DNA of 64,000 nucleotides from Candidatus Micrarchaeia archaeon (GCA_038874595.1 JAVZCB010000005.1:17594-81593), one strand, 5' to 3'; positions 25,306 through 63,012 are shown, counted from the first letter of the stretch. Numbers and translations: made by a program. The notes: generated from the sequence alone by a model not told the origin.

Positions 25306-25974
25306 TCAATAGCAAAAATGCCTCTTGAAGAGGTAATCTGCAATATTGTTGTTGCCGCACATGCGTGCTATATCAATTGCAGTATGCTGCCATTCATCCT
25401 CAAACAATATCCACGCGCCATTATTAACCAGCATCCTGGCTATGCGCATGCTACCGCTCGCTGATGCAAACATCAACGCCGTGGAGCCAGAGAAGTTGCG
25501 TGCATTGACATCCGCTCCTGCATCAATAAGCATCTTTGCAATTGTTACTTCGCTAAGTGATGCCGCCCACATCAGTGCGTTGTCGCCAAGCACTGTCGGC
25601 AGGTCAACCTGTGCGCCTGCATTGAGCAGATGGGATACAATCCTAATCCTGTTGCACATTGTAGCCAATACTATTACAGGTGTGCCCTCATCATCAACCA
25701 CGTTTGGGTTTGCACCGCTTTCAAGCAGTGCTTTGACCGCACCGCTGTCACCTTTCAGGGTAGCATAAATAAGTGCATAGCCGAGCTGTACGTCATGTCC
25801 CTGCTTGTAAATCCAATTTAAGTCAGGGATGAGCTTATTTATCTTGTTTGTCAAGGGCAGCATAGCATTTTTTCGAAAACTGTTTATCCTATGTGCCTTC
25901 TCTGCGGGGGACTGCGAAGGCTCAACAATAAAATCGCATGCCTGCACTGTTGCTGTTTTCATCTGGCTGATCAT
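25306..25974 (-). CDS. Ankyrin-repeat protein
   Basis: Multiple 33-residue ankyrin repeats with G-TPL..A...G motifs. Confidence 0.7.
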   Translation of the reverse strand: MISQMKTATVQACDFIVEPSQSPAEKAHRINSFRKNAMLPLTNKINKLIPDLNWIYKQGHDVQLGYALIYATLKGDSGAVKALLESGANPNVVDDEGTPVIVLATMCNRIRIVSHLLNAGAQVDLPTVLGDNALMWAASLSEVTIAKMLIDAGADVNARNFSGSTALMFASASGSMRIARMLVNNGAWILFEDEWQHTAIDIARMCGNNNIADYLFKRHFCY

Positions 25975-38580: not shown

Positions 38581-38921
38581 TGAGCGGTTGGTGGGCAGCT
38601 TACGGTGCCTTTCTTTGGTGCAGCTTTCTTTAGAAAGCTGGGAACTTGATAAGCTCCTGTACACCAAAAGAAAGGTACTGAGGAAGGTCCACCCACGCAG
38701 AGCTCTGACTGCATTAATATTGCAGATGGGGGAACAGAAACGGTACCCTCCCCGCCTTATGGGATGAGGATAACGACTTCGGTGGGATAAGGGATGAAAC
38801 GGCCTCCTGTGCAGGGCTGTGAGCGTGCAAGCCCTTTCGGGCGCTTAGACAAATGCTGCCAAGATGAGCATATCCATAAGGAAGTGCATCTTACAGAAGG
38901 TGGCCTACAACCAGCCGCTCA
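38581..38921 (+). ncRNA. rnpB: RNase P RNA (candidate)
   Basis: 10-bp terminal helix UGAGCGGUUG (38581-38590) with CAGCCGCUCA (38912-38921); CR-I-like GAGGAAGGUCCACCC (38680-38694); CR-V-like ACAGAAGGUGGCCUA (38893-38907); these form a P4-like pairing with a bulged U. Confidence 0.7.
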
Positions 38922-52186: not shown

Positions 52187-54142
52187 TTACTGCCAGGGCT
52201 TCTTCCTAAATAGCTGCTTTACCCCAAGCACAAGCAGTGCTATAATCAAAATAACAAACAGCACTGTTGCCACGCTCACAAGCGTTAGGTAGTTTGTATC
52301 CTCTGCACTTTTTGTCTCTGATTTGAGCTTAGCCAGCGCCTCATCAGCATACTGCTTTGCAAGGGCTGGGTCATCATAAAGCATCTTACGCGCCCTCAGT
52401 ATCAGCTCCTCCGCGTCCGTTGTGTTGACTGATGAAGATATTGAAGAGTTCCTTATTGAATTGAGCAAAGCATCCGCTTCTGTAATGCTGGTATTGGCCG
52501 CATAAAACGCAGCTTTCTTTTTCTGGAGTTGTGATTGTGCATCGTTGAGCTTCTCAAGCAGCTCAGTAAGCTTTGCATACGCTGTATCAAGCTCAAAATT
52601 ATCGATATCGCTCCCCACCGTGCCAAGCAGATATTCGATGCGCTCGGTATCTGCTGGTACCTTAAACCTTATGAGGTCCTCTTTAATTGAGGAATAGAGT
52701 GCATCCGCATTCTCAAGCTGTTCCTTGTAATTTTCTATGCGCTTGTTTTCAACCTCCTGTCCAATACCCTGCACCTTAGAAAGTGATGCATACCTAACTT
52801 CAAGCTCCTTTAGTAGGATGTTTGCATTCACATAATCCTCATTTTCAATATACCTGTTAACCTTCTTTATATCCAGAAGTATCTTGTTTGCCGCATACTG
52901 CAACGAGCCGGATAAGTTCTTTGAGAGGGCAGTTGTACTATCAAACAAGTCTGCACTGCGGTTTTTCAAACGCTCCGAAACGAGAGGGCCTGCAAAAGAT
53001 AAGTCACCATCGAGCTGCGGCTCAATCCCTTTCAATGTTGAGTATGCTTCATCATACTTGCCTTTGCTTATTAAATCTGATGCATTGCCTAAGTGCTTAT
53101 TATAGAAACTGCACCTGTCTATAACCTGTAAGTTAAGACTGTTTGCAACTGCAAATATATCACATACCTTGTTTACTTTTGAATATATCCCGTCATATAT
53201 TGGTGTTACGTCCTCAGGCCCGAGCAAGCTTGTTTTATTAAGGAAAAATACCAATAGCGAGTTATTCTTATAATCTGTTACATAAAGTAAACCGTTTGAG
53301 GTTGATATCCCGGAAACCTGGCCGAATTTGTAAGATGGAGCCCCAATCGAGTACAAAATGCGCCCATCTTCGCGCAGCAACACCTCTATTGATACCCTGT
53401 CCCCTTGTACAACATAAATGTAATCATCATCAACTGCAATCTCTTGCGGCCTTGAAAGTGTGCTAGTGCTTCCGCGCCCATAGGATTTTAAGTATGTTGA
53501 TTCATCAGCGAACACCGCTATGCGGTTGTTATACGTATCCGCTATGTACAGCGTGCCGTTGTATACACACATCCCTCTTGGGGAATTGAATATTGCATCA
53601 CCAATGCCAAGATATGTCCAGCTTATGCTGCTTCTGTAAGAATACTTGTTTGCTTCATATTCCTTAAGCACGTTCACCTGCCCTTTCTCGCTGTCAAGAA
53701 CATATATAGTATTTTCAAAGGCAGCTATTGCAGCCGGCCCTGCGGGCTTATAGGATTCGCTGTCTCCCCTGAACTTGAGCTCACCGGTCCCCTTGTCAAA
53801 CTTGAACACGCGGCCTCCCCTATCAAGCACATATACATAATTTTTATCAGCCCATGCGCTGACAACTGCTGCCATATAATCCTGCTCACCGGGTGTATCA
53901 GAGCCGTATACCTTGCTAACGCGCAGCTTACCCGTCGGGTCAATGTAATACTTTGTTAGGAGACGGTAGTTGTCATACCATATGTAAAGGTATGGTCCGT
54001 CAGCAAACACTCCTGATACGTGCAGGTCCTCACGCAAAGTATACTTATCTTTGAGCTCAAATCTTGCAGCCCATACCATTGTTGACAACAAAAGCAACAA
54101 GGATATGGATAATACTGTAAAGCCCATTCTTGAATTTGCCAT
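52187..54142 (-). CDS. NHL-repeat beta-propeller surface protein with coiled-coil and C-terminal TM anchor
   Basis: Signal peptide; repeated NHL-like blades (YVLD, LYIADTYNNRIAVF, LYVTDYKNNSLLVF); C-terminal TM plus basic tail. Confidence 0.6.
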   Translation of the reverse strand: MANSRMGFTVLSISLLLLLSTMVWAARFELKDKYTLREDLHVSGVFADGPYLYIWYDNYRLLTKYYIDPTGKLRVSKVYGSDTPGEQDYMAAVVSAWADKNYVYVLDRGGRVFKFDKGTGELKFRGDSESYKPAGPAAIAAFENTIYVLDSEKGQVNVLKEYEANKYSYRSSISWTYLGIGDAIFNSPRGMCVYNGTLYIADTYNNRIAVFADESTYLKSYGRGSTSTLSRPQEIAVDDDYIYVVQGDRVSIEVLLREDGRILYSIGAPSYKFGQVSGISTSNGLLYVTDYKNNSLLVFFLNKTSLLGPEDVTPIYDGIYSKVNKVCDIFAVANSLNLQVIDRCSFYNKHLGNASDLISKGKYDEAYSTLKGIEPQLDGDLSFAGPLVSERLKNRSADLFDSTTALSKNLSGSLQYAANKILLDIKKVNRYIENEDYVNANILLKELEVRYASLSKVQGIGQEVENKRIENYKEQLENADALYSSIKEDLIRFKVPADTERIEYLLGTVGSDIDNFELDTAYAKLTELLEKLNDAQSQLQKKKAAFYAANTSITEADALLNSIRNSSISSSVNTTDAEELILRARKMLYDDPALAKQYADEALAKLKSETKSAEDTNYLTLVSVATVLFVILIIALLVLGVKQLFRKKPWQ

Positions 54143-55951: not shown

Positions 55952-55978
55952 TCAAAATACAAAGCTTTTTAATTTTCG

Positions 55979-56695
55979 GTGAGATGTAATTCTGTGAGCG
56001 ATGAGATTGAATTTATAGATGTGGCTCTTCTTGAGAAGATTGATGCTGAGACGACTGTTGAGGGGTTTGGCTCAAAAATCAGCAGTACATTCTTTGAGGC
56101 GGCAAACCTGCTGGGCACCCTAAAAATAAAGGGCCTTATCGAGATACATTCCGCGATTGGGAACAGCCCGGTGCTCCTCACCGAGAAAGGAAAATTGCTG
56201 CTGAAAGATTTTGAGGCCAACGCGGAGGCAGAGATTGGCAAGATTGACCTGGCAGTGCTTGGGAGTGTGCGCGGTGGGCTGCGCGATCCAAAGAAAGTCG
56301 AGGCAGCGTTAAACATCAACGGGAAGGATATCGCATATTCCATATACAGGCTTGCAAAGAAAGGATATCTTGAATACAAAGTTAGGAATGGCAGTGTTGA
56401 GCTTGTTCTTACAACACGCGGGTTTGAGGAGGAGAATCCGACCGTAAAGGAGCATGCAAACAGGGTAATTGCAAAAACCGAGCTTGCAAGGCCTGTTGTA
56501 AAAGCTCCTGGGGAGGTACGAAACAAGACTGCTGAGGAACTGGCTGCCGAGGAGTTTGTTGTTGAAAGTGGGGATGCTAGAAAGGAGAGTATGGCACTGT
56601 CAAAAATGATGTATTATATTGATAGGTATAAGTGGTATGGTGTGCTTGCACTTATAGCTGCAGCTGCGGTGCTCCTTCTTGTTTTCTGGAAGTGA
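55979..56695 (+). CDS. Hypothetical membrane-anchored protein with two winged-helix-like repeats
   Basis: GTG start; two internally similar about 70-aa segments; C-terminal TM helix. Confidence 0.4.
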   Translation: MRCNSVSDEIEFIDVALLEKIDAETTVEGFGSKISSTFFEAANLLGTLKIKGLIEIHSAIGNSPVLLTEKGKLLLKDFEANAEAEIGKIDLAVLGSVRGGLRDPKKVEAALNINGKDIAYSIYRLAKKGYLEYKVRNGSVELVLTTRGFEEENPTVKEHANRVIAKTELARPVVKAPGEVRNKTAEELAAEEFVVESGDARKESMALSKMMYYIDRYKWYGVLALIAAAAVLLLVFWK

Positions 56696-57314
56696 TGCTA
56701 TGGGGATGGTTGATGACCTCGGGCTGTTTTCAAAAGCAGGCATAACACTCCCTAGATATGAATTTGTGCCTATTGGGCATAGGCCTGTGTTATTCAGTGC
56801 TGAAAAGTTTGTAATCAAAGCTGTTGGGAAAAACATTGTACACAAGACAGATATTGGTGCAATAAAAATGAACGTGGATAAGGAGAGTGTTGAGCTTGAG
56901 ATTAGGCGGATGCGCAACAAGCTTGAAAAGCTCAGGCCAGAGGGGTTTCTGATACAGGAGCAGGTGCCAAAAGGTATTGAGGTTATAATTGGTGCAAAGC
57001 GGGATTTGCAGTTCGGTGATGTTGTGCTGTTTGGAGTTGGTGGGGTTTATGTTGAGTTATATAAGGACGTGTCTGTAAGGCTATGCCCCGTATCTGACAC
57101 GGATGCACTTGAGATGATTAATGAGACAAAAGCAGGGCACTTGCTTGAAGGGTTCCGGGGAAGGCCGTCGATTGATAAGTGTATGGTTGCTGGTATAATA
57201 AAGAAGGTGTGCGCGGTGATGCACCGCAACCCGGACATAAAGGAGATTGACCTGAACCCGGTCGTGCTTTACCCGACCAGCTACTCTGCCGTCGATGTGA
57301 GAGTGATAAGATGA
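56679..57314 (+). CDS. NDP-forming acetyl-CoA synthetase (ACD), beta subunit (ATP-grasp)
   Basis: ATP-grasp motifs KAVGKNIVHKTDIGAI and IEVIIGAKRD; stop overlaps the alpha-subunit ATG (ATGA); likely true start ATG near 56700. Confidence 0.7.
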   Translation: MFSGSDAMGMVDDLGLFSKAGITLPRYEFVPIGHRPVLFSAEKFVIKAVGKNIVHKTDIGAIKMNVDKESVELEIRRMRNKLEKLRPEGFLIQEQVPKGIEVIIGAKRDLQFGDVVLFGVGGVYVELYKDVSVRLCPVSDTDALEMINETKAGHLLEGFRGRPSIDKCMVAGIIKKVCAVMHRNPDIKEIDLNPVVLYPTSYSAVDVRVIR

Positions 57315-58777
57315 ATAAAAATAAGCGCGCACCGGCAGATAAGGAAAACAGTATGGTGCGGGATAACCAAAACCTGAACATGCGTGCAGTAATTGAGCCG
57401 AGCAGTATTGTAGTTATTGGTGCATCAAGAAACCCATCAAAGGTTGGGTATGCCGTGCTCAAGAACCTTATCACGAGTGGGTTTAATGGCTGGCTTTATG
57501 CCGTAAATCCGAACGCTGATAACATACTTGGTGTGAGATGTTACAAGAGCATCAAGGAACTCCCTCAGAAAGTTGACTGTGCAATAATAGCTGTGCCTGC
57601 AGAAAACGTAAATGAGATAATCGAGGAATGCGGCAGAAAGGGGGTTCGTGGAGCAATTGTGATTTCCGGCGGGTTCAAGGAAGTTGGGGAAGTGAAGCGT
57701 GAGTTGGAGCTCACAAAAATATGCAGAAAATATGGCATTGCAATGATAGGGCCGAACTGTCTCGGGATAGTAAATAGGAAAAAGCACGTTGACAGCATAT
57801 TCCTCCCAACATATAAGATGAAGAGGCCGCAGCTCGGGAAGATTAGTTTCGTGACACAGAGCGGTGCCGTCGGCTCAACAATACTCGACCTTATAGGGGA
57901 GTCAAACATAGGTGTCTCAAAATTCATATCGTACGGTAATGCTGCTGTCATTGATGAGAGTGATTTGCTGCGCTATCTGCGTGAGGATGCTGACACATCG
58001 GTTGTGGTTATGTATATCGAAGGTGTAAAGGACGGCAGGAAGTTTTATAGGGAGCTTAAGGAAACATGCGCAGTCAAGCCGGTTGTTGTCTTAAAGGCAG
58101 GAAAAGGTGCGTTGGCTGCAGGTGCGGCAAAATCACATACTGGTGCGCTTGCAGGTGATTACAAGATTTTCCAGGCAATGCTGAAACAAGCGGGTGCGGT
58201 TGAGGCGACAAACCTGCCGGAGTTATTCAACTTATCAAAGATATTCCTACAGCCATTGCCCAAAGGGGATAGGATGTTCGTGCTCACGAACGGTGGTGGC
58301 GATGGTGTGCTCGCAGTGGATGCAATCGAAAGGAACGGGTTGAAACTGGCACAACTGAGCGGGAAAATGCGTGCAAAACTGCGGAGGATTCTGCCAAAGC
58401 ATGTTGTTGTTGGCAACCCGTTTGACCTAACAGGCGATGCGGACAGCACGAGGTACAGGACCGTGCTTGAAGAGGCAGTAAAAGAGGAGGGCATCGATGC
58501 AATCATTGCAATAACACTGTTTCAAACGGCCGGCCTTGGCTCTGAGGTCGTCAATGAGATTATAAGCGCCGATATCAAAACGGATAAAACGATTGTATCT
58601 GTTGCAACTGGTGGTGAGTATACGCGCCTCCTCCTCAGCATAATAGAATCTTCCGGAATACCTGCGTATGGGTCGCCAAGCGAAGCTGTTGATTCAATCG
58701 CAAAGGCGTTATGGTATTATAAGAAGAGGGGTGTGGGCCGCGGGACAGTACAAAGCGCTGGAGACGGCAGCGTGTGA
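57311..58777 (+). CDS. NDP-forming acetyl-CoA synthetase (ACD), alpha subunit
   Basis: CoA-binding VIGASRNPSKVGY and catalytic-His loop GKGALAAGAAKSHTGALAG. Confidence 0.8.
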   Translation: MNKNKRAPADKENSMVRDNQNLNMRAVIEPSSIVVIGASRNPSKVGYAVLKNLITSGFNGWLYAVNPNADNILGVRCYKSIKELPQKVDCAIIAVPAENVNEIIEECGRKGVRGAIVISGGFKEVGEVKRELELTKICRKYGIAMIGPNCLGIVNRKKHVDSIFLPTYKMKRPQLGKISFVTQSGAVGSTILDLIGESNIGVSKFISYGNAAVIDESDLLRYLREDADTSVVVMYIEGVKDGRKFYRELKETCAVKPVVVLKAGKGALAAGAAKSHTGALAGDYKIFQAMLKQAGAVEATNLPELFNLSKIFLQPLPKGDRMFVLTNGGGDGVLAVDAIERNGLKLAQLSGKMRAKLRRILPKHVVVGNPFDLTGDADSTRYRTVLEEAVKEEGIDAIIAITLFQTAGLGSEVVNEIISADIKTDKTIVSVATGGEYTRLLLSIIESSGIPAYGSPSEAVDSIAKALWYYKKRGVGRGTVQSAGDGSV

Positions 58778-59700
58778 GCAGTATGATAGCCCAGCTAAAC
58801 AGTATTGTCCTGCTTTTTCTCCTTTATTTAAACATCAAGCTCATACGGAAATATATTGATACCGATGATGCAAATTATGTCATTGCATTCGCTGTACTTC
58901 TCTTCTTGTTCTTCAACCTATGGTTGGGAGCGTATGCGGAAATACTCGGCAGGTTCCAGCAGCAGTTCACAATTGCTATGAACGCGTTGCCAATGATAAT
59001 TGTAATTGTGCTTGTGTGGCTTGAAGGAAAAAGGAAAAAGGAAGAGCGGGAAAGAAGGAAAACGCGCGAGTTCTTCTCAAAGTATGTTTCAGAGAAGATT
59101 GTAGACACTCTCCTCAAGGAAAAACAACTTGAGCTTGGCGGTGAGAAGCATCAAGTAACTGTTCTTTTCACGGATGTGCGCGGGTTTACTGCAATGTCTG
59201 AGAGGCTTGACCCGAAGCAGGTCGTTGAAGTGCTTAACGGGCACTTTGATATAATCAATGAGGAAATATTCAGAGAAAATGGTACCGTGCTCAAGTATAT
59301 CGGAGACTCTGCAATGGCTGTGTTTAATGCCCCTATCTTGCAGAAAGACCATGCTGAAAAGGCTGTGCGGGCGTGCATAGCCGTGCAAAAAAGGATGAAA
59401 GAATACTCATCTACAGTTAAAGGTAAAATGAATATTGATTTTGCAATTGGTATAGGGATAAATAGCGGTGAAGCGGTTGTCGGCAATATCGGCTCACACA
59501 AGTATATGGATTATACGGTCATAGGAGATGCCGTGAACACGGCGTCGCGGTTAAATGGCATTGCAAAAGCTGGTGAGATAGTCGTGAGTGAGAGCACATA
59601 CGAGCTCATTAAAGACAAGTTCAGGTTTAGCAAACCAGAGGAGGTTCCAGTTAAAGGGAAGGTGCTTCCAGTCAAGGTTTATAGGGTGCTTTATGAATAG
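58774..59700 (+). CDS. Membrane-anchored class III nucleotidyl (adenylyl) cyclase
   Basis: N-terminal TM helices; CHD domain with metal-binding Asp in FTDVRGFT and IGD, substrate Lys in KYIGD, transition-state GDAVNTASRL; start overlaps the ACD alpha stop. Confidence 0.75.
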   Translation: MSSMIAQLNSIVLLFLLYLNIKLIRKYIDTDDANYVIAFAVLLFLFFNLWLGAYAEILGRFQQQFTIAMNALPMIIVIVLVWLEGKRKKEERERRKTREFFSKYVSEKIVDTLLKEKQLELGGEKHQVTVLFTDVRGFTAMSERLDPKQVVEVLNGHFDIINEEIFRENGTVLKYIGDSAMAVFNAPILQKDHAEKAVRACIAVQKRMKEYSSTVKGKMNIDFAIGIGINSGEAVVGNIGSHKYMDYTVIGDAVNTASRLNGIAKAGEIVVSESTYELIKDKFRFSKPEEVPVKGKVLPVKVYRVLYE

Positions 59701-59709
59701 GGTGGATAT

Positions 59710-60288
59710 ATGAAGGGACAGGTTGAGTTTAAAGAAGAAAAAGTTAGCATTGCTGATTACGCATATGCGTATGTAATGTCCCAAAAAAGCATCCTGAAGA
59801 TAATTAACGCAAAAGAGTGGAAAATATCTGTTGTACTGGCCGTGATTGCGCTTATTGTTGTGGCCTTACCTGCAAGGCAGCCGCTGTCGCTATTTGATTA
59901 TGCCTACAATTTTGCACTTATAGGTGGTGGCCTGGTTATTATAAACGCTCTCGTTTCTGGAATTATATACGCACTCTTTAAGAGAAAGTTTGCACACTGC
60001 TTCTTCTCCATGCTAAAGCTTGCCTCAACAACACTTATCATAAATGCTATTTTATTACTGCTACTTTACGTGGTTGGGCTGCCGTTCGGTGCGAGCCAGA
60101 CACTGCTGGCTGCAGCCGCTACGCTAATTTCAACATATTATTTTGCAGTGTTGCTTGCGATCATCGCCGGGTATGCTACGGATGCATCTGATACGCTGGA
60201 TGAAAAAATAAGAAAACATATTGTTGAGATAGCAACACTGTTGCTGTGGTATGCTTTCACATTCTACCTGCTGCCACTCACACTCTAA
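59710..60288 (+). CDS. Integral membrane protein
   Basis: 192 aa, short soluble N-terminus then 4-5 TM helices; 10 nt downstream of the cyclase. Confidence 0.5.
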   Translation: MKGQVEFKEEKVSIADYAYAYVMSQKSILKIINAKEWKISVVLAVIALIVVALPARQPLSLFDYAYNFALIGGGLVIINALVSGIIYALFKRKFAHCFFSMLKLASTTLIINAILLLLLYVVGLPFGASQTLLAAAATLISTYYFAVLLAIIAGYATDASDTLDEKIRKHIVEIATLLLWYAFTFYLLPLTL

Positions 60289-60327: not shown

Positions 60328-61140
60328 TTAATCTGTGCTTGCAAGGAAGCTCCACCACGGCCTTTTCTCATTTATTATGGTGCCGTTGACCGCATCCACA
60401 GACATCTCAACATCCATATCTGCATCAAACAGCCAGAGCAGTTTTGCACGGCGCGTCGCATTTATTGCATATTGAGGTATACCATTGGCAACGCGAAGCT
60501 CTACTGATTTCATCTCCCTTATGCGTGTTTTTTGGGAAATCTCTGATGGGAGCACGCGTATTGCAACGCTGGATGCGTGGAGCGTGCCGTTCTCTATGCG
60601 GAGGTTCTCGCGCGTGCGCACCCTTACTCCTGCATCATTTATTATTACACCGTCATCTTTTTCTGCGGCCTCTAACCACATATCGCGGTTGTTGGCACGG
60701 ACCCTGACGCGTAAAGTTTCATTAATTGCGAGTGGGACATCCTCAAGGATTGCCGACCTGTTTGATGCTATTATGCGCACCAACATTCCCTGCGGCACAT
60801 CAATCGTGCCGTTCTTGCGGGACTCTATTATGGCGTGCACCTGCTCGGATATGCCGCTCCTGTTGCGCTCCTGCTCCCTCGCCTGCACTGCTTCGGTTGG
60901 TGTGCCAGTCCCGTTCCCGTCCTTCTCCCTTGTTGCCTGCTGCTGCTCGGTGCGGACTCTCTCCTGCTCTTCGATACCGGTACCCTTGCCTGTGCTTGCC
61001 TCATTCTGTTCTCGGATTTCATTCTGAATTTCGTTTTGTGCATTGCTTTTTGCAGCGCCTGAACTTGATATTGCAAGCACTGGGTAAATTGTCAAAAGTG
61101 AAAAAATGCAGATGGCCAACAAGTAATTTTTCAGGTTCAT
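60328..61140 (-). CDS. Secreted hypothetical protein
   Basis: Signal peptide, Gln/Glu-rich low-complexity region, several N-x-T sequons. Confidence 0.45.
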   Translation of the reverse strand: MNLKNYLLAICIFSLLTIYPVLAISSSGAAKSNAQNEIQNEIREQNEASTGKGTGIEEQERVRTEQQQATREKDGNGTGTPTEAVQAREQERNRSGISEQVHAIIESRKNGTIDVPQGMLVRIIASNRSAILEDVPLAINETLRVRVRANNRDMWLEAAEKDDGVIINDAGVRVRTRENLRIENGTLHASSVAIRVLPSEISQKTRIREMKSVELRVANGIPQYAINATRRAKLLWLFDADMDVEMSVDAVNGTIINEKRPWWSFLASTD

Positions 61141-61234: not shown

Positions 61235-62365
61235 TCAGATGTGGTTTTTGCTGCTTGTGCGTATGGCAACATAAAGGAGCATTACAAATGCAAGAACAAC
61301 CGCTGCTGTGCCGCACCCTTGCGGCCTTGGCGCTATATCTGTTGATGTTGAGCTTGTTTGTGAGAGCGGCTCGGATATCTGGTTTATAGTTACCATAGCA
61401 TACAAGCTGAGCCCGTCTGTGTGCACTTCATATATGTAATACCCGTCAATTTCTGAAACTGTTGGGGTTAGCACTTCAACCCTGCCGTCATCAGTATAGC
61501 GGAGTATTACCACTTCACCGGAGACCTGCTCTTTTGGCACTTTAAACCTGAGCGTTGCCGATTTTATATTTACACCATCAAGAAGATTATGCATGTTTAC
61601 CTCGATTGCATCCAAAGCCGAATACCCCGCCGTATTATTATATCTGAGTTGTATCGCCTGCTTGAATTTCTCACGCACTTGGTCATTTAGCTCGGCTCTT
61701 TGCGCATTAATTAATGAGTTCTCATTAACAGAATCTAAATCCGCTGCAATCTCAACACCGAGACCGCTATCAAGAGTGCCTGTAATTGAGAGTATGCCAT
61801 CCTGCAAAGTAAGATGCCCATCCTCCTCATTCACAACTGTACCCCCAAGCGACACTGTTAAGCCTTTGGATGGGTGTTCTTCAAAAGCAATTTTAGGAAT
61901 AGGGTCACAAAAACCAAAAGATTTTGATTTGTCCCCAAGCTTGAATGTACAGCCATCTTTATCACAGGTTGAATATATCTTTGCACCGCGTATGCTACAG
62001 GAGACTGTATGCTCATCGCTGTTGGCACATTTGCACTCTGCACCTGAAATGCTCTTGCACATAATCTGGACAAGAGTTGAGGATGGCTGAATTCTGCCTA
62101 TATCTGTTTCCTCGCCTAATAGTTTTGCCTTACAGGAGTTACCGTCACAGGACACTATAAGGTCCTCTTTTAGGTCTATAACGCAAACCGCACCTCCTTG
62201 CGCTGGCCTGCACGCACAGGATGCGTGGAGCCGTGACTCGCATACCTTTTCAAGCACAAGCGTATTGTTGGACGCTGATGCGGGTATGCATTCCACCTGC
62301 ACGGCGTTAGCTAACGTTGCAAACATTACGAGTGCAACCAGAAAATATTGGATGTTTTGTTGCAT
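61235..62365 (-). CDS. Cysteine-rich secreted protein with C-terminal TM anchor
   Basis: Signal peptide, Cys-rich N-terminal module, C-terminal hydrophobic helix. Confidence 0.5.
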   Translation of the reverse strand: MQQNIQYFLVALVMFATLANAVQVECIPASASNNTLVLEKVCESRLHASCACRPAQGGAVCVIDLKEDLIVSCDGNSCKAKLLGEETDIGRIQPSSTLVQIMCKSISGAECKCANSDEHTVSCSIRGAKIYSTCDKDGCTFKLGDKSKSFGFCDPIPKIAFEEHPSKGLTVSLGGTVVNEEDGHLTLQDGILSITGTLDSGLGVEIAADLDSVNENSLINAQRAELNDQVREKFKQAIQLRYNNTAGYSALDAIEVNMHNLLDGVNIKSATLRFKVPKEQVSGEVVILRYTDDGRVEVLTPTVSEIDGYYIYEVHTDGLSLYAMVTINQISEPLSQTSSTSTDIAPRPQGCGTAAVVLAFVMLLYVAIRTSSKNHI

Positions 62366-62421: not shown

Positions 62422-62877
62422 ATGCAAAAATTCCATAAAAGAAACTGTGAAAGGAAAAAGAGCCGTTTACCTAATCTTGAGCCAAAGGTTGAGCAGGCGG
62501 TAGGAAATACTAGGCAAAAAGACCTAGATGCAATTCTCCTGAGAGCGGCTGCTGAAAATAATTATGAAAAAGTGGTCAAAGCTGTCCTGGCAGGAGCCAA
62601 TATAAACGCACAGGATGAAGACGGGAATACGCCGCTTATGCACGCCGCATCTAACTTGCGTGAAGATATAGCAAGGTTCCTTCTTGAAAATGGTGCGGAT
62701 ATCAACATCAAGAACAAATACAATAATACTGCCTTAAAGATTGCAAAAGGGTTCTGCAGCAGAAAGGTTATTGCGCTGATTAAAATGTATAAAAAAAGCG
62801 CCTCCAATAAAGCTGCTAATCTTAAGAAAAATGAGTGCAAAAACACAAAAACGGAGGGGTTTTTAGAACCAACCTAA
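62422..62877 (+). CDS. Ankyrin-repeat protein
   Basis: Ankyrin consensus DGNTPLMHAASNLREDIARFLLENGADIN. Confidence 0.65.
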   Translation: MQKFHKRNCERKKSRLPNLEPKVEQAVGNTRQKDLDAILLRAAAENNYEKVVKAVLAGANINAQDEDGNTPLMHAASNLREDIARFLLENGADINIKNKYNNTALKIAKGFCSRKVIALIKMYKKSASNKAANLKKNECKNTKTEGFLEPT

Positions 62878-62895: not shown

Positions 62896-63012
62896 TGGAC
62901 TCGCGGGGATTTGAACCCCGAGCCTCCACCTTATCCTTCTGCTTTTTGGAAGAGAAAGGGGTCTCCCTGCCTCTCTTGCGAAGGTGGCGTCATGCCGTTA
63001 GACCACGAGCCC
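62896..63012 (-). tRNA. tRNA-Ala (anticodon CGC) with about 45-nt intron
   Basis: Hand-folded cloverleaf: acceptor GGGCUCG/CGAGUCC with G3:U70, T-arm CGGGG-UUCAAAU-CCCCG, anticodon loop UUCGCA[intron]A, discriminator A; T-run follows the 3' end. Confidence 0.8.

What the first reader, a model, noticed from the sequence alone, without database searches (positions are those of the whole stretch)
55979..60288. Operon coupling ADP-forming acetyl-CoA synthetase to a membrane-anchored class III adenylyl cyclase
Five co-directional genes run with overlapping or near-abutting boundaries: a membrane-anchored winged-helix-like protein, ACD beta, ACD alpha, a TM-anchored class III cyclase and a small polytopic membrane protein. 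Class III cyclases are uncommon in archaea, and translational coupling to an ATP-generating acetyl-CoA synthetase is not an arrangement I recognise. It suggests a link between acetyl-CoA/ATP status and cyclic-nucleotide signalling at the membrane. This is the best candidate in the window for an undescribed system.
Basis: partly seen in the sequence, partly recalled or inferred. Interest (0 to 1): 0.72.

Follow-up and report, generated by a model that had tools for sequence, protein, structure and literature searches.

The report
Acetate enzyme genes beside archaeal cyclase
In one small group of tiny symbiotic archaea, the genes for their main ATP-making enzyme sit directly in front of a membrane cAMP-making enzyme; this is a lineage-specific joining of two independent gene modules, and the cyclase's constant partner is an unknown small membrane protein.

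Summary
Five co-directional, abutting genes in a Candidatus Micrarchaeia (DPANN) contig encode a tail-anchored winged-helix-like protein (O1), ACD beta, ACD alpha, a 3-TM class III cyclase and a 5-TM protein (O5). Both ACD catalytic histidines are present. The cyclase has every catalytic residue, with a Lys/Thr adenine-specifying pair (class IIIb adenylyl cyclase).

Comparative data split the row into two separable modules. O1-ACDbeta-ACDalpha occurs without a cyclase in three Micrarchaeota loci. Cyclase-O5-like occurs without ACD in five DPANN loci. One genome (GCA_053994475.1) carries the two modules on different contigs. None of 79 bacterial cyclase loci has ACD within 8 kb.

The joined form, with junctions of -8 to +2 nt, is restricted to one clade (about seven lineages; cyclase at least 60% identical). 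That clade also keeps the wider synteny, so a single origin is likely.

Co-transcription is therefore plausible in this clade, but a dedicated acetyl-CoA/ATP-to-cAMP system is not supported.

The more robust and apparently undescribed feature is the invariable cyclase plus fast-evolving 5-TM partner pair. It matters because no archaeal cAMP-synthesising enzyme has been characterised. Interest is moderate.

The parts
55961..55977 (+). Conserved BRE/TATA-like promoter element AAAGCTTTTTAATTTTC, 17-33 nt upstream of the probable O1 start
   Evidence: Near-identical motif at the same distance upstream of O1 homologues in L001, L005, L085 and L087. It is also present in the unlinked L091. Promoter function is inferred, not shown.
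55979..56695 (+). O1: tail-anchored protein with two winged-helix-like domains. Probable true start is GTG 55994. It is a conserved companion of ACD, not of the cyclase.
   Evidence: Sub-threshold wHTH Pfam matches in 6 of 7 homologues (wHTH-PRTase_assc, HTH_27, DUF4364, HTH_45). Best PDB profile hit is a MarR-type regulator, E 0.013. C-terminal TM helix at 217-238. Homologues sit directly upstream of ACD beta in the cyclase-free loci L091, L092 and L093 (blastp 1e-38 to 1e-65).
56679..57314 (+). ACD beta subunit (ATP-grasp). Probable start is ATG 56700.
   Evidence: ATP-grasp_5, E 1.3e-47. Best PDB match is the Korarchaeum ACD beta chain 4xyl_B, E 3.9e-38, with the catalytic His aligned (VHKTDIGA vs VHKSDVGG). 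The His is kept in the 8 other beta subunits checked (5 linked, 3 cyclase-free).
57311..58777 (+). ACD alpha subunit (CoA-binding / succinyl-CoA-ligase-like). The last ~15 residues are not conserved.
   Evidence: Pfam CoA_binding, Succ_CoA_lig and Ligase_CoA_2. TIGR02717 491 bits, below the 567 cut-off. PDB 2csu E 3e-97 and 4xyl_A E 2e-89, with the phosphohistidine motif SHTGALAG aligned to SHTGSLAG. The motif is kept in all linked loci. tblastn alignments to relatives end at residue 473.
58774..59700 (+). 3-TM, membrane-anchored class IIIb adenylyl cyclase. The alternative start ATG 58783 is more likely.
   Evidence: Guanylate_cyc, 116 bits. Best PDB relatives are Cya2/6fht, 2w01 and P. aeruginosa CyaB 3r5g. 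Metal Asp D134/D178, adenine Lys K174 and Thr T248, Asn255/Arg259 and Lys294 are invariant in 22 DPANN homologues and in all loci. TM segments at about 1-24, 32-59 and 63-86.
59710..60288 (+). O5: small 5-TM protein of unknown fold, the invariable downstream partner of the cyclase
   Evidence: No Pfam, NCBIfam or PADLOC match. AF2 model pLDDT 70 with five TM helices. No meaningful structural neighbour. The family has only 6 representatives among 1.84 billion proteins. A 144-192 aa 5-TM gene follows the cyclase in every archaeal locus examined. hhalign between groups 1 and 2 gives probability 92%, E 7.5e-7.

Best explanation
The five-gene row is a lineage-specific end-to-end joining of two older, independently conserved modules in a Candidatus Micrarchaeia (DPANN) archaeon.

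Module A is O1-ACDbeta-ACDalpha. It encodes the housekeeping ADP-forming acyl/acetyl-CoA synthetase that makes ATP and acetate from acetyl-CoA. It is preceded by a tail-anchored tandem winged-helix-like protein and has its own conserved TATA-like promoter.

Module B is a 3-TM class IIIb adenylyl cyclase followed by a fast-evolving 5-TM protein (O5).

In the joined clade, the cyclase-O5 pair most likely rides on read-through or coupled translation from the ACD transcript. The cAMP-generating machinery would then be expressed together with the main ATP-generating enzyme.

Mechanistically, the cyclase should dimerise through its catalytic domains and convert ATP to cAMP. Its 3-TM anchor together with O5 would form the membrane part that receives or modulates the signal. 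A CO2/bicarbonate response is possible, as in other class IIIb enzymes.

Shown: gene identities, intact catalytic residues, separability of the modules, and the constant cyclase-O5 pairing.

Inferred: co-transcription, physical cyclase-O5 interaction, AC activity, and the nature of the signal.
For: Identities and catalytic residues.

Module A without a cyclase:
- L091: ACD alpha 67% identical, O1 48%.
- L092 and L093: ACD alpha 52-54%, O1 35-42%.

Module B without ACD:
- L003, L004, L088, L089 (inside a ribosomal-protein operon) and L090.

L003 and L091 come from the same assembly, GCA_053994475.1, on different contigs.

Joined form: found only in the window, L001/L002, L005, L085-L087 and L094-L096, with junctions of -8 to +2 nt and the wider synteny also kept.

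Trees: the linked loci are monophyletic in the cyclase tree (NJ bootstrap 97%, then 82% after adding L095), and the cyclase and ACD alpha trees are broadly congruent.

Bacterial controls: no ACD within 8 kb in 79 bacterial cyclase loci. A small polytopic gene follows the cyclase in all archaeal loci (the script scored 10 of 11; L086's gene is shown), but in only 3 of 75 bacterial loci, and those are non-homologous or artefactual.

Promoters: a conserved promoter-like motif lies upstream of O1 in linked and unlinked loci, and the unlinked cyclases have their own A/T boxes.

Literature: ACD alpha+beta is present and vertically inherited in all 33 Micrarchaeota genomes surveyed (PMC5864196).
Against: - No transcript data, so co-transcription is not shown. 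A TATTATA(A/G)AAA stretch in the ACD alpha 3' coding region lies 25-35 nt upstream of the cyclase start in L001 and L086, and could be an internal promoter.
- The linkage has survived while O5 diverged to 33-37% identity with tight junctions kept. This could reflect selection for coupling rather than inertia.
- The ACD alpha tree cannot resolve whether the unlinked genome is sister to or nested within the linked clade. A secondary separation, rather than primary independence, is possible for that genome.
- Homology of the third group of downstream proteins (L088, L089) to O5 is weak (hhalign probability 21-33%).
- No cAMP receptor or phosphodiesterase was found in the window.
Confidence: 0.68

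Rival explanations
1. One reading: a dedicated functional system. ACD activity or acetyl-CoA/ATP status is coupled, through translational coupling and perhaps a membrane complex nucleated by the tail-anchored O1, to cAMP synthesis by the cyclase.
For: - Stop/start overlaps or 0-5 nt spacers at the ACD alpha-cyclase junction in all linked loci.
- The linkage is kept across about seven lineages while cyclase identity falls to 60% and O5 identity to 33%.
- O1 and the cyclase are both membrane-anchored.
- ATP is the product of ACD and the substrate of the cyclase (established biochemistry).
- cAMP-acetate links exist in bacteria: cAMP-activated MtPat (PMC8556138) and the acetate-sensitive C. glutamicum cyaB mutant (PMC7026483, title and abstract only).
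Against: - Only one evolutionary origin. The wider synteny is also conserved in the clade, so retention needs no selection.
- The modules are separate in GCA_053994475.1 and in every more distant relative examined.
- O1 travels with ACD, not with the cyclase.
- No ACD near 79 bacterial homologues.
Confidence: 0.18
2. The cyclase-O5 pair is a Pycsar-like anti-virus module: a cyclase makes a cyclic nucleotide on infection and a membrane effector kills the cell. It happens to be inserted next to ACD.
For: The cyclase matches PADLOC PycC models (best 102 bits, E 8e-30). The architecture, a cyclase followed by a small polytopic membrane protein, resembles PycC-PycTM.
Against: - The PycC match is no better than the generic Guanylate_cyc match (116 bits).
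- The purine-type Lys/Thr specificity pair is invariant, as in CyaB.
- O5-like proteins hit no PADLOC effector model and have no room for a cyclic-nucleotide-binding domain.
- The pair is inherited in step with ACD alpha and sits among housekeeping genes, including a ribosomal-protein operon.
- The cyclase itself is membrane-anchored.
Confidence: 0.06
3. The cyclase is a degenerate or non-AC enzyme (a guanylyl cyclase or an inactive pseudo-cyclase), and the row has no signalling meaning.
For: The closest solved relative, Cya2 (2w01), is a guanylyl cyclase. No cAMP receptor was found in the 64-kb window.
Against: At the two specificity positions the query has Lys and Thr, like the AC CyaB (3r5g) and the Lys variant 6fht, where Cya2 has Glu and Gly. 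All metal-binding and transition-state residues are invariant across 22 homologues. The window is only part of the genome.
Confidence: 0.05

Closest known systems
Bacterial class IIIb membrane adenylyl cyclases (P. aeruginosa CyaB, PDB 3r5g; Synechocystis Cya2/Slr1991 group)
   Same: Same catalytic domain family with full-length alignment (E 1e-33 to 3e-38). Same metal, transition-state and Lys/Thr substrate residues as CyaB. N-terminal polytopic membrane anchor followed by a short linker and the catalytic domain. Class IIIb is defined partly by Asp-to-Thr replacement, and all tested prokaryotic members respond to inorganic carbon (PMC2613629).
   Different: - Archaeal (DPANN) rather than bacterial.
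- Only a minimal 3-TM anchor, with no MASE2, CHASE2, HAMP, GAF or PAS module.
- Always followed by a separate 5-TM protein that bacterial relatives lack.
- CO2 response and AC activity are untested here.
ADP-forming acetyl-CoA synthetase (ACD) of archaea (P. horikoshii 2csu/1wr2; Ca. Korarchaeum cryptofilum 4xyl)
   Same: Same alpha and beta domain sets, both catalytic histidines, and split beta-alpha genes. It is the Micrarchaeota-wide enzyme proposed to make acetate and ATP (PMC5864196).
   Different: The alpha subunit scores below the TIGR02717 equivalog cut-off (491 vs 567 bits), so acetate specificity is inferred rather than established. In Micrarchaeota the genes are preceded by a tail-anchored wHTH-like protein (O1). 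I found no paper describing O1, though no literature search addressed it specifically.
Bacterial cAMP-acetyl-CoA metabolism links (mycobacterial cAMP-activated acetyltransferase MtPat/MsPat; Pat enzymes with ACD-like sensor domains)
   Same: A precedent that cAMP signalling and acetate/acetyl-CoA metabolism can be wired together. NDP-forming acyl-CoA-synthetase-like domains can act as acetyl-CoA sensors (PMC8556138).
   Different: Those systems use a cAMP-binding GNAT, or a catalytically dead ACD-like domain lacking the histidine. Here ACD keeps both histidines, and there is no GNAT and no cNMP-binding domain. The only link is gene adjacency in one clade.
Pycsar (PycC cyclase + PycTM effector)
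   Same: A two-gene cyclase plus membrane-protein layout, with a generic HMM match of the cyclase to PycC.
   Different: Purine-type specificity residues. The partner lacks a cyclic-nucleotide-binding domain and any effector HMM match. Vertical, housekeeping-like genomic behaviour.

Membership tests
Class III nucleotidyl cyclase (Pfam PF00211), subclass IIIb adenylyl cyclase | Catalytic domain match above the curated threshold | tested here: met
   116 bits against a gathering score of 21.9, covering profile positions 6-176 of 183.
Class III nucleotidyl cyclase (Pfam PF00211), subclass IIIb adenylyl cyclase | Two metal-binding Asp, transition-state Asn and Arg, and phosphate-binding Lys | tested here: met
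   D134, D178, N255, R259 and K294 are invariant in 22 homologues and aligned to the equivalent residues of CyaB/Cya2.
Class III nucleotidyl cyclase (Pfam PF00211), subclass IIIb adenylyl cyclase | Adenine-specifying Lys, with Thr replacing the substrate Asp (the IIIb hallmark) | tested here: met
   K174 aligns with the Lys of CyaB and 6fht (Glu in the GC Cya2). T248 aligns with the Thr of CyaB (Gly in Cya2). Definition of IIIb from PMC2613629.
Class III nucleotidyl cyclase (Pfam PF00211), subclass IIIb adenylyl cyclase | Homodimerisation, ATP-to-cAMP activity, and CO2/bicarbonate response | not testable with these tools
   Requires purified protein and enzyme assays.
ADP-forming acetyl-CoA synthetase (ACD, NDP-forming acyl-CoA synthetase superfamily) | Alpha subunit domains (CoA-binding, Succ_CoA_lig, Ligase_CoA_2) and beta subunit ATP-grasp_5 | tested here: met
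   All are above the Pfam thresholds. PDB 2csu and 4xyl A/B are the best matches.
ADP-forming acetyl-CoA synthetase (ACD, NDP-forming acyl-CoA synthetase superfamily) | Catalytic phosphohistidine in alpha (SHTG loop) and second His in beta (HKS/TD) | tested here: met
   SHTGALAG at alpha residue ~276 and VHKTDIGA at beta residue ~55 are aligned to 2csu/4xyl. Both are conserved in linked loci. This distinguishes it from the His-less Pat sensor domains (PMC8556138).
ADP-forming acetyl-CoA synthetase (ACD, NDP-forming acyl-CoA synthetase superfamily) | Equivalog-level score for the acetate-specific enzyme (TIGR02717 cut-off) | tested here: not met
   491 bits against a cut-off of 567. Family membership is secure, but acetate specificity is only inferred.
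   - Linked only in one clade with a single apparent origin.
- Unlinked in L003/L091, L004, L088-L090, L092 and L093.
- Absent from 79 bacterial loci.
   Junctions of -8 to +5 nt fit coupling. However, A/T-rich boxes inside the ACD alpha 3' end could be internal promoters, and there are no RNA data.
Pycsar anti-phage system | Effector with a cyclic-nucleotide-binding domain fused to TM or TIR | tested here: not met
   O5 and two O5-like proteins have no PADLOC hit and no cNMP_binding Pfam hit. The AF2 model is five TM helices with only ~35 soluble residues.
Pycsar anti-phage system | Pyrimidine-selective active site, or defence-island context | tested here: not met
   Canonical purine Lys/Thr pair. 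Housekeeping context and vertical inheritance. No direct alignment to characterised PycC enzymes was possible beyond the HMM scores.
Yip1-domain membrane proteins (PF04893), for the O5-like partner | Profile match above threshold | tested here: inconclusive
   Only the L089 partner matches (E 5e-4, 20.4 bits against a cut-off of 28.6, full length). The window O5 and four others do not match.
Winged-helix transcription regulators (MarR/TrmB-like), for O1 | Profile match above threshold, or a confident fold | tested here: inconclusive
   Sub-threshold wHTH matches in 6 of 7 homologues. PDB profile best E 0.013. Single-sequence AF2 gave pLDDT 45, with only a helix-helix-hairpin at 99-139.

The most novel reading that the evidence does not exclude
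In this Micrarchaeia clade the join is functional. The tail-anchored O1 brings ACD to the membrane beside the cyclase-O5 complex. cAMP output would then report flux through the cell's main substrate-level ATP-forming step, or CO2 released upstream of it. This would give an episymbiotic, genome-reduced archaeon a one-operon energy-status signal. It would also provide the first defined cAMP-synthesising system in Archaea, with O5 as a new kind of dedicated cyclase subunit.
Probability: 0.12. Interest if true: 0.75.

Novelty: new variant of a known kind. Interest (0 to 1): 0.42.

Why it matters
cAMP is detected in archaea, but a 2023 review states that no archaeal protein that makes, degrades or binds it has been established (PMC10249747). 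Class III cyclases are said to be very rare there (PMC8646023).

This locus belongs to a DPANN-wide family of minimal 3-TM class IIIb cyclases with intact active sites, always paired with a small 5-TM protein. That family is a concrete, testable candidate for archaeal cAMP synthesis and for a split receptor-cyclase design.

The ACD adjacency offers a natural experiment, because linked and unlinked relatives both exist. It can test whether operon fusion to a core energy enzyme changes signalling. By itself, though, it is weak evidence for a new metabolic-signalling system.

Tried and rejected
- **Genome-contig scan with the 22-sequence cyclase alignment.** The bacterial loci served as a negative control.
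- **Metagenome scans with cyclase N-terminal alignments.** A5 gave 600 chance pattern matches and no relative. A scan with the O5 alignment then worked.
- **Exhaustive profile search for O5.** Only 6 representatives were found, so there was no annotated relative to lean on.
- **O1 structure.** The single-sequence model was too poor to search with (pLDDT 45).
- **Pycsar reading.** Considered and rejected on effector and specificity grounds.
- **Bacterial cyclase loci with a small 5-TM downstream gene (L040, L054).** These are not homologous to O5 (hhalign probability below 13%). The L014 hit was an ORF-calling artefact.
- **Origin of the 3-TM anchor from CHASE2-type cyclases.** P0079 aligns over 98% of the query, but similarity in the TM region is too low to argue this.
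- **Window survey for cNMP-binding, GAF, CRP or dedicated PDE genes.** None found.


Full report
**What is there.** The window is part of a 97-kb contig of a Candidatus Micrarchaeia (DPANN) MAG. The cyclase, O5 and ACD alpha proteins are each 100% identical to NCBI MAG proteins.

Five + strand ORFs occupy 55979-60288. Pfam, NCBIfam and PDB searches identify them as follows:
- **O2** is the ATP-grasp beta subunit of an NDP-forming acyl-CoA synthetase, and **O3** is its CoA-binding alpha subunit. The best solved relatives are the Pyrococcus and Korarchaeum ACDs.
- **O4** is a class III nucleotidyl cyclase with three N-terminal TM segments.
- **O1** gives only sub-threshold winged-helix matches in two regions and ends in one TM helix.
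- **O5** has no family match and is predicted as five TM helices.

Homologue alignments and a conserved upstream motif move the likely starts slightly: O1 to 55994, ACD beta to 56700 and the cyclase to 58783. The genes remain within -4 to +9 nt of each other.

**Are the enzymes intact?**

*Cyclase.* Both metal aspartates (D134, D178), the adenine-binding lysine (K174), the transition-state Asn255/Arg259 and Lys294 are invariant across 22 DPANN homologues and across all fetched loci. The second specificity position is Thr248. In the HMMER alignments K174 and T248 match the Lys and Thr of the P. aeruginosa adenylyl cyclase CyaB, where the guanylyl cyclase Cya2 has Glu and Gly. Asp-to-Thr is the class IIIb hallmark, and all tested prokaryotic IIIb enzymes respond to inorganic carbon (PMC2613629). 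Calling this a class IIIb adenylyl cyclase therefore rests on tested sequence features. Activity and CO2 response are inferred.

*ACD.* The alpha phosphohistidine loop (SHTGALAG) and the beta histidine (VHKTDIGA) are present and conserved. This differs from the histidine-less ACD-like sensor domains of Pat acetyltransferases (PMC8556138). The alpha subunit falls below the TIGR02717 equivalog cut-off (491 vs 567 bits), so acetate specificity is an inference.

**Is the linkage conserved?** The same five-gene order, with ACD alpha-cyclase junctions of -8 to +2 nt, occurs in L001/L002, L005, L085, L086, L087 and L094-L096. In these loci cyclase identity is 60-76%, ACD alpha 65-80%, O1 44-66% and O5 33-55%. 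These loci also share the wider neighbourhood, with IF5B upstream and TFE, RIO1, eIF1A and others downstream.

Outside this clade the row falls apart into two units:
- **Cyclase without ACD.** The cyclase plus a small 5-TM gene occurs without ACD in L003 (59% identity), L004, L088, L089 and L090 (43-48%). In L089 it sits in the middle of a ribosomal-protein operon.
- **ACD without cyclase.** ACD beta-alpha preceded by an O1 homologue occurs without any cyclase in L091, L092 and L093.
- **Same genome, two contigs.** L003 and L091 are two contigs of one assembly (GCA_053994475.1). One genome closely related to the linked clade therefore carries both modules apart.
- **Bacterial controls.** None of 79 bacterial cyclase loci has an ACD gene within 8 kb.

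In NJ trees the linked cyclases are monophyletic, with bootstrap 97% and then 82% after adding L095. The ACD alpha tree is congruent but cannot say whether the unlinked genome is sister to the linked clade or nested in it. Either way there is one joining event and at most one later separation.

ACD alpha+beta is reported in all 33 Micrarchaeota genomes surveyed and is vertically inherited (PMC5864196). ACD alpha identities show a gap, from 64-80% within the clade to 54% or less outside it.

**What is the cyclase's real partner?** In every archaeal locus a 144-192 aa protein with about five TM helices starts within -10 to +170 nt of the cyclase stop. Only 3 of 75 bacterial loci show this pattern, and those downstream proteins are unrelated or artefactual.

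These partners evolve fast and fall into three sequence groups. Groups 1 and 2 are related at profile level (hhalign probability 92%, E 7.5e-7). Group 3 is only weakly linked (21-33%), although it shares length, topology and position.

An exhaustive HMM search finds just six representatives of the window's group. Structure prediction gives a moderate five-helix model with no informative neighbour. One group-3 member has a weak full-length Yip1 match.

**Promoters.** A motif AAAGCTTTTTAATTTTC lies 17-33 nt upstream of the probable O1 start (window 55961-55977). It is conserved in linked loci and in the unlinked L091, as expected for a BRE/TATA element driving O1-ACD. Unlinked cyclases carry their own A/T boxes 20-37 nt upstream. 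In linked loci the only candidate is an A/T-rich stretch inside the ACD alpha coding end. Co-transcription in the linked clade is thus plausible but unproven.

**Interpretation.** The best-supported account is a lineage-specific fusion of a housekeeping module (O1-ACD) with a signalling module (cyclase-O5). Its likely consequence is co-expression, with no comparative evidence for a deeper mechanistic tie. However, it rests on a single evolutionary event. A Pycsar-like defence reading is unlikely.

**Novelty.** Literature searches found no description of an ACD-cyclase operon or of this cyclase-partner pair. Reviews state that very few archaeal class III cyclases are predicted and that no archaeal cAMP-metabolising protein is established. 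I rate it a new variant of a known kind, of moderate interest. Most of that interest lies in the DPANN cyclase plus 5-TM pair rather than in the ACD adjacency.

**Limits.**
- About fourteen archaeal loci were examined.
- Trees are NJ only.
- There are no transcript or biochemical data.
- Only 64 kb of the genome was seen, so the absence of cAMP receptors says little.

Noticed in passing
window 55961-55977: Conserved AAAGCTTTTTAATTTTC element in the 42-nt gap between the divergent IF5B and O1 genes. It is near-identical in five related loci and is probably a shared or bidirectional archaeal promoter giving near-leaderless mRNAs.
   Followed up: partly
window 38583-38919 (+): Archaeal RNase P RNA (Rfam RF00373, 91 bits), full length.
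   Followed up: no
window 62896-63012 (-): A 117-nt tRNA match by Rfam (50 bits) that ARAGORN missed. It is presumably an intron-containing archaeal tRNA.
   Followed up: no
window 25306-25974 (-) and 62422-62877 (+): Two ankyrin-repeat proteins in a DPANN genome fragment. Ankyrin repeats are unusual in archaea and could relate to host interaction.
   Followed up: no
window 52187-54142 (-), 60328-61140 (-), 61235-62365 (-): Probable surface or secreted proteins flank the operon. One is a 651-aa NHL-repeat protein with N- and C-terminal hydrophobic segments, and its neighbour position is conserved in L001 and L085. The other two have hydrophobic N-termini and no Pfam match (one is Cys-rich).
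   Followed up: no
L088 2811-3557 (+): A 248-aa metallophosphoesterase gene ends 7 nt before the cyclase start in an unlinked Micrarchaeota locus. It is a candidate cAMP phosphodiesterase forming a PDE-cyclase-5TM trio.
   Followed up: partly
L089 5001-9253: The cyclase, its 5-TM partner and an 862-aa protein without Pfam matches are inserted between ribosomal protein genes S8 and L6 of the conserved r-protein operon.
   Followed up: no
L004 5125-5949 (-) and L090 4143-4991 (-): In both group-2 loci a polytopic Peptidase_A24-like (prepilin peptidase) gene lies divergently just upstream of the cyclase. This may be a second conserved association.
   Followed up: no
L005 6277-7941 and 8871-9040: ACD alpha carries an ~80-aa C-terminal extension (554 aa) that reaches the cyclase start. 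A 170-nt purine-rich spacer separates the cyclase from O5, unlike the tight junctions elsewhere.
   Followed up: no
L091 6486-7786: In the genome where ACD and cyclase are unlinked, ACD alpha is followed by a 188-aa protein of unknown function (no Pfam hit) and an AbiEii toxin gene. A mobile toxin-antitoxin insertion may mark the rearrangement site.
   Followed up: no
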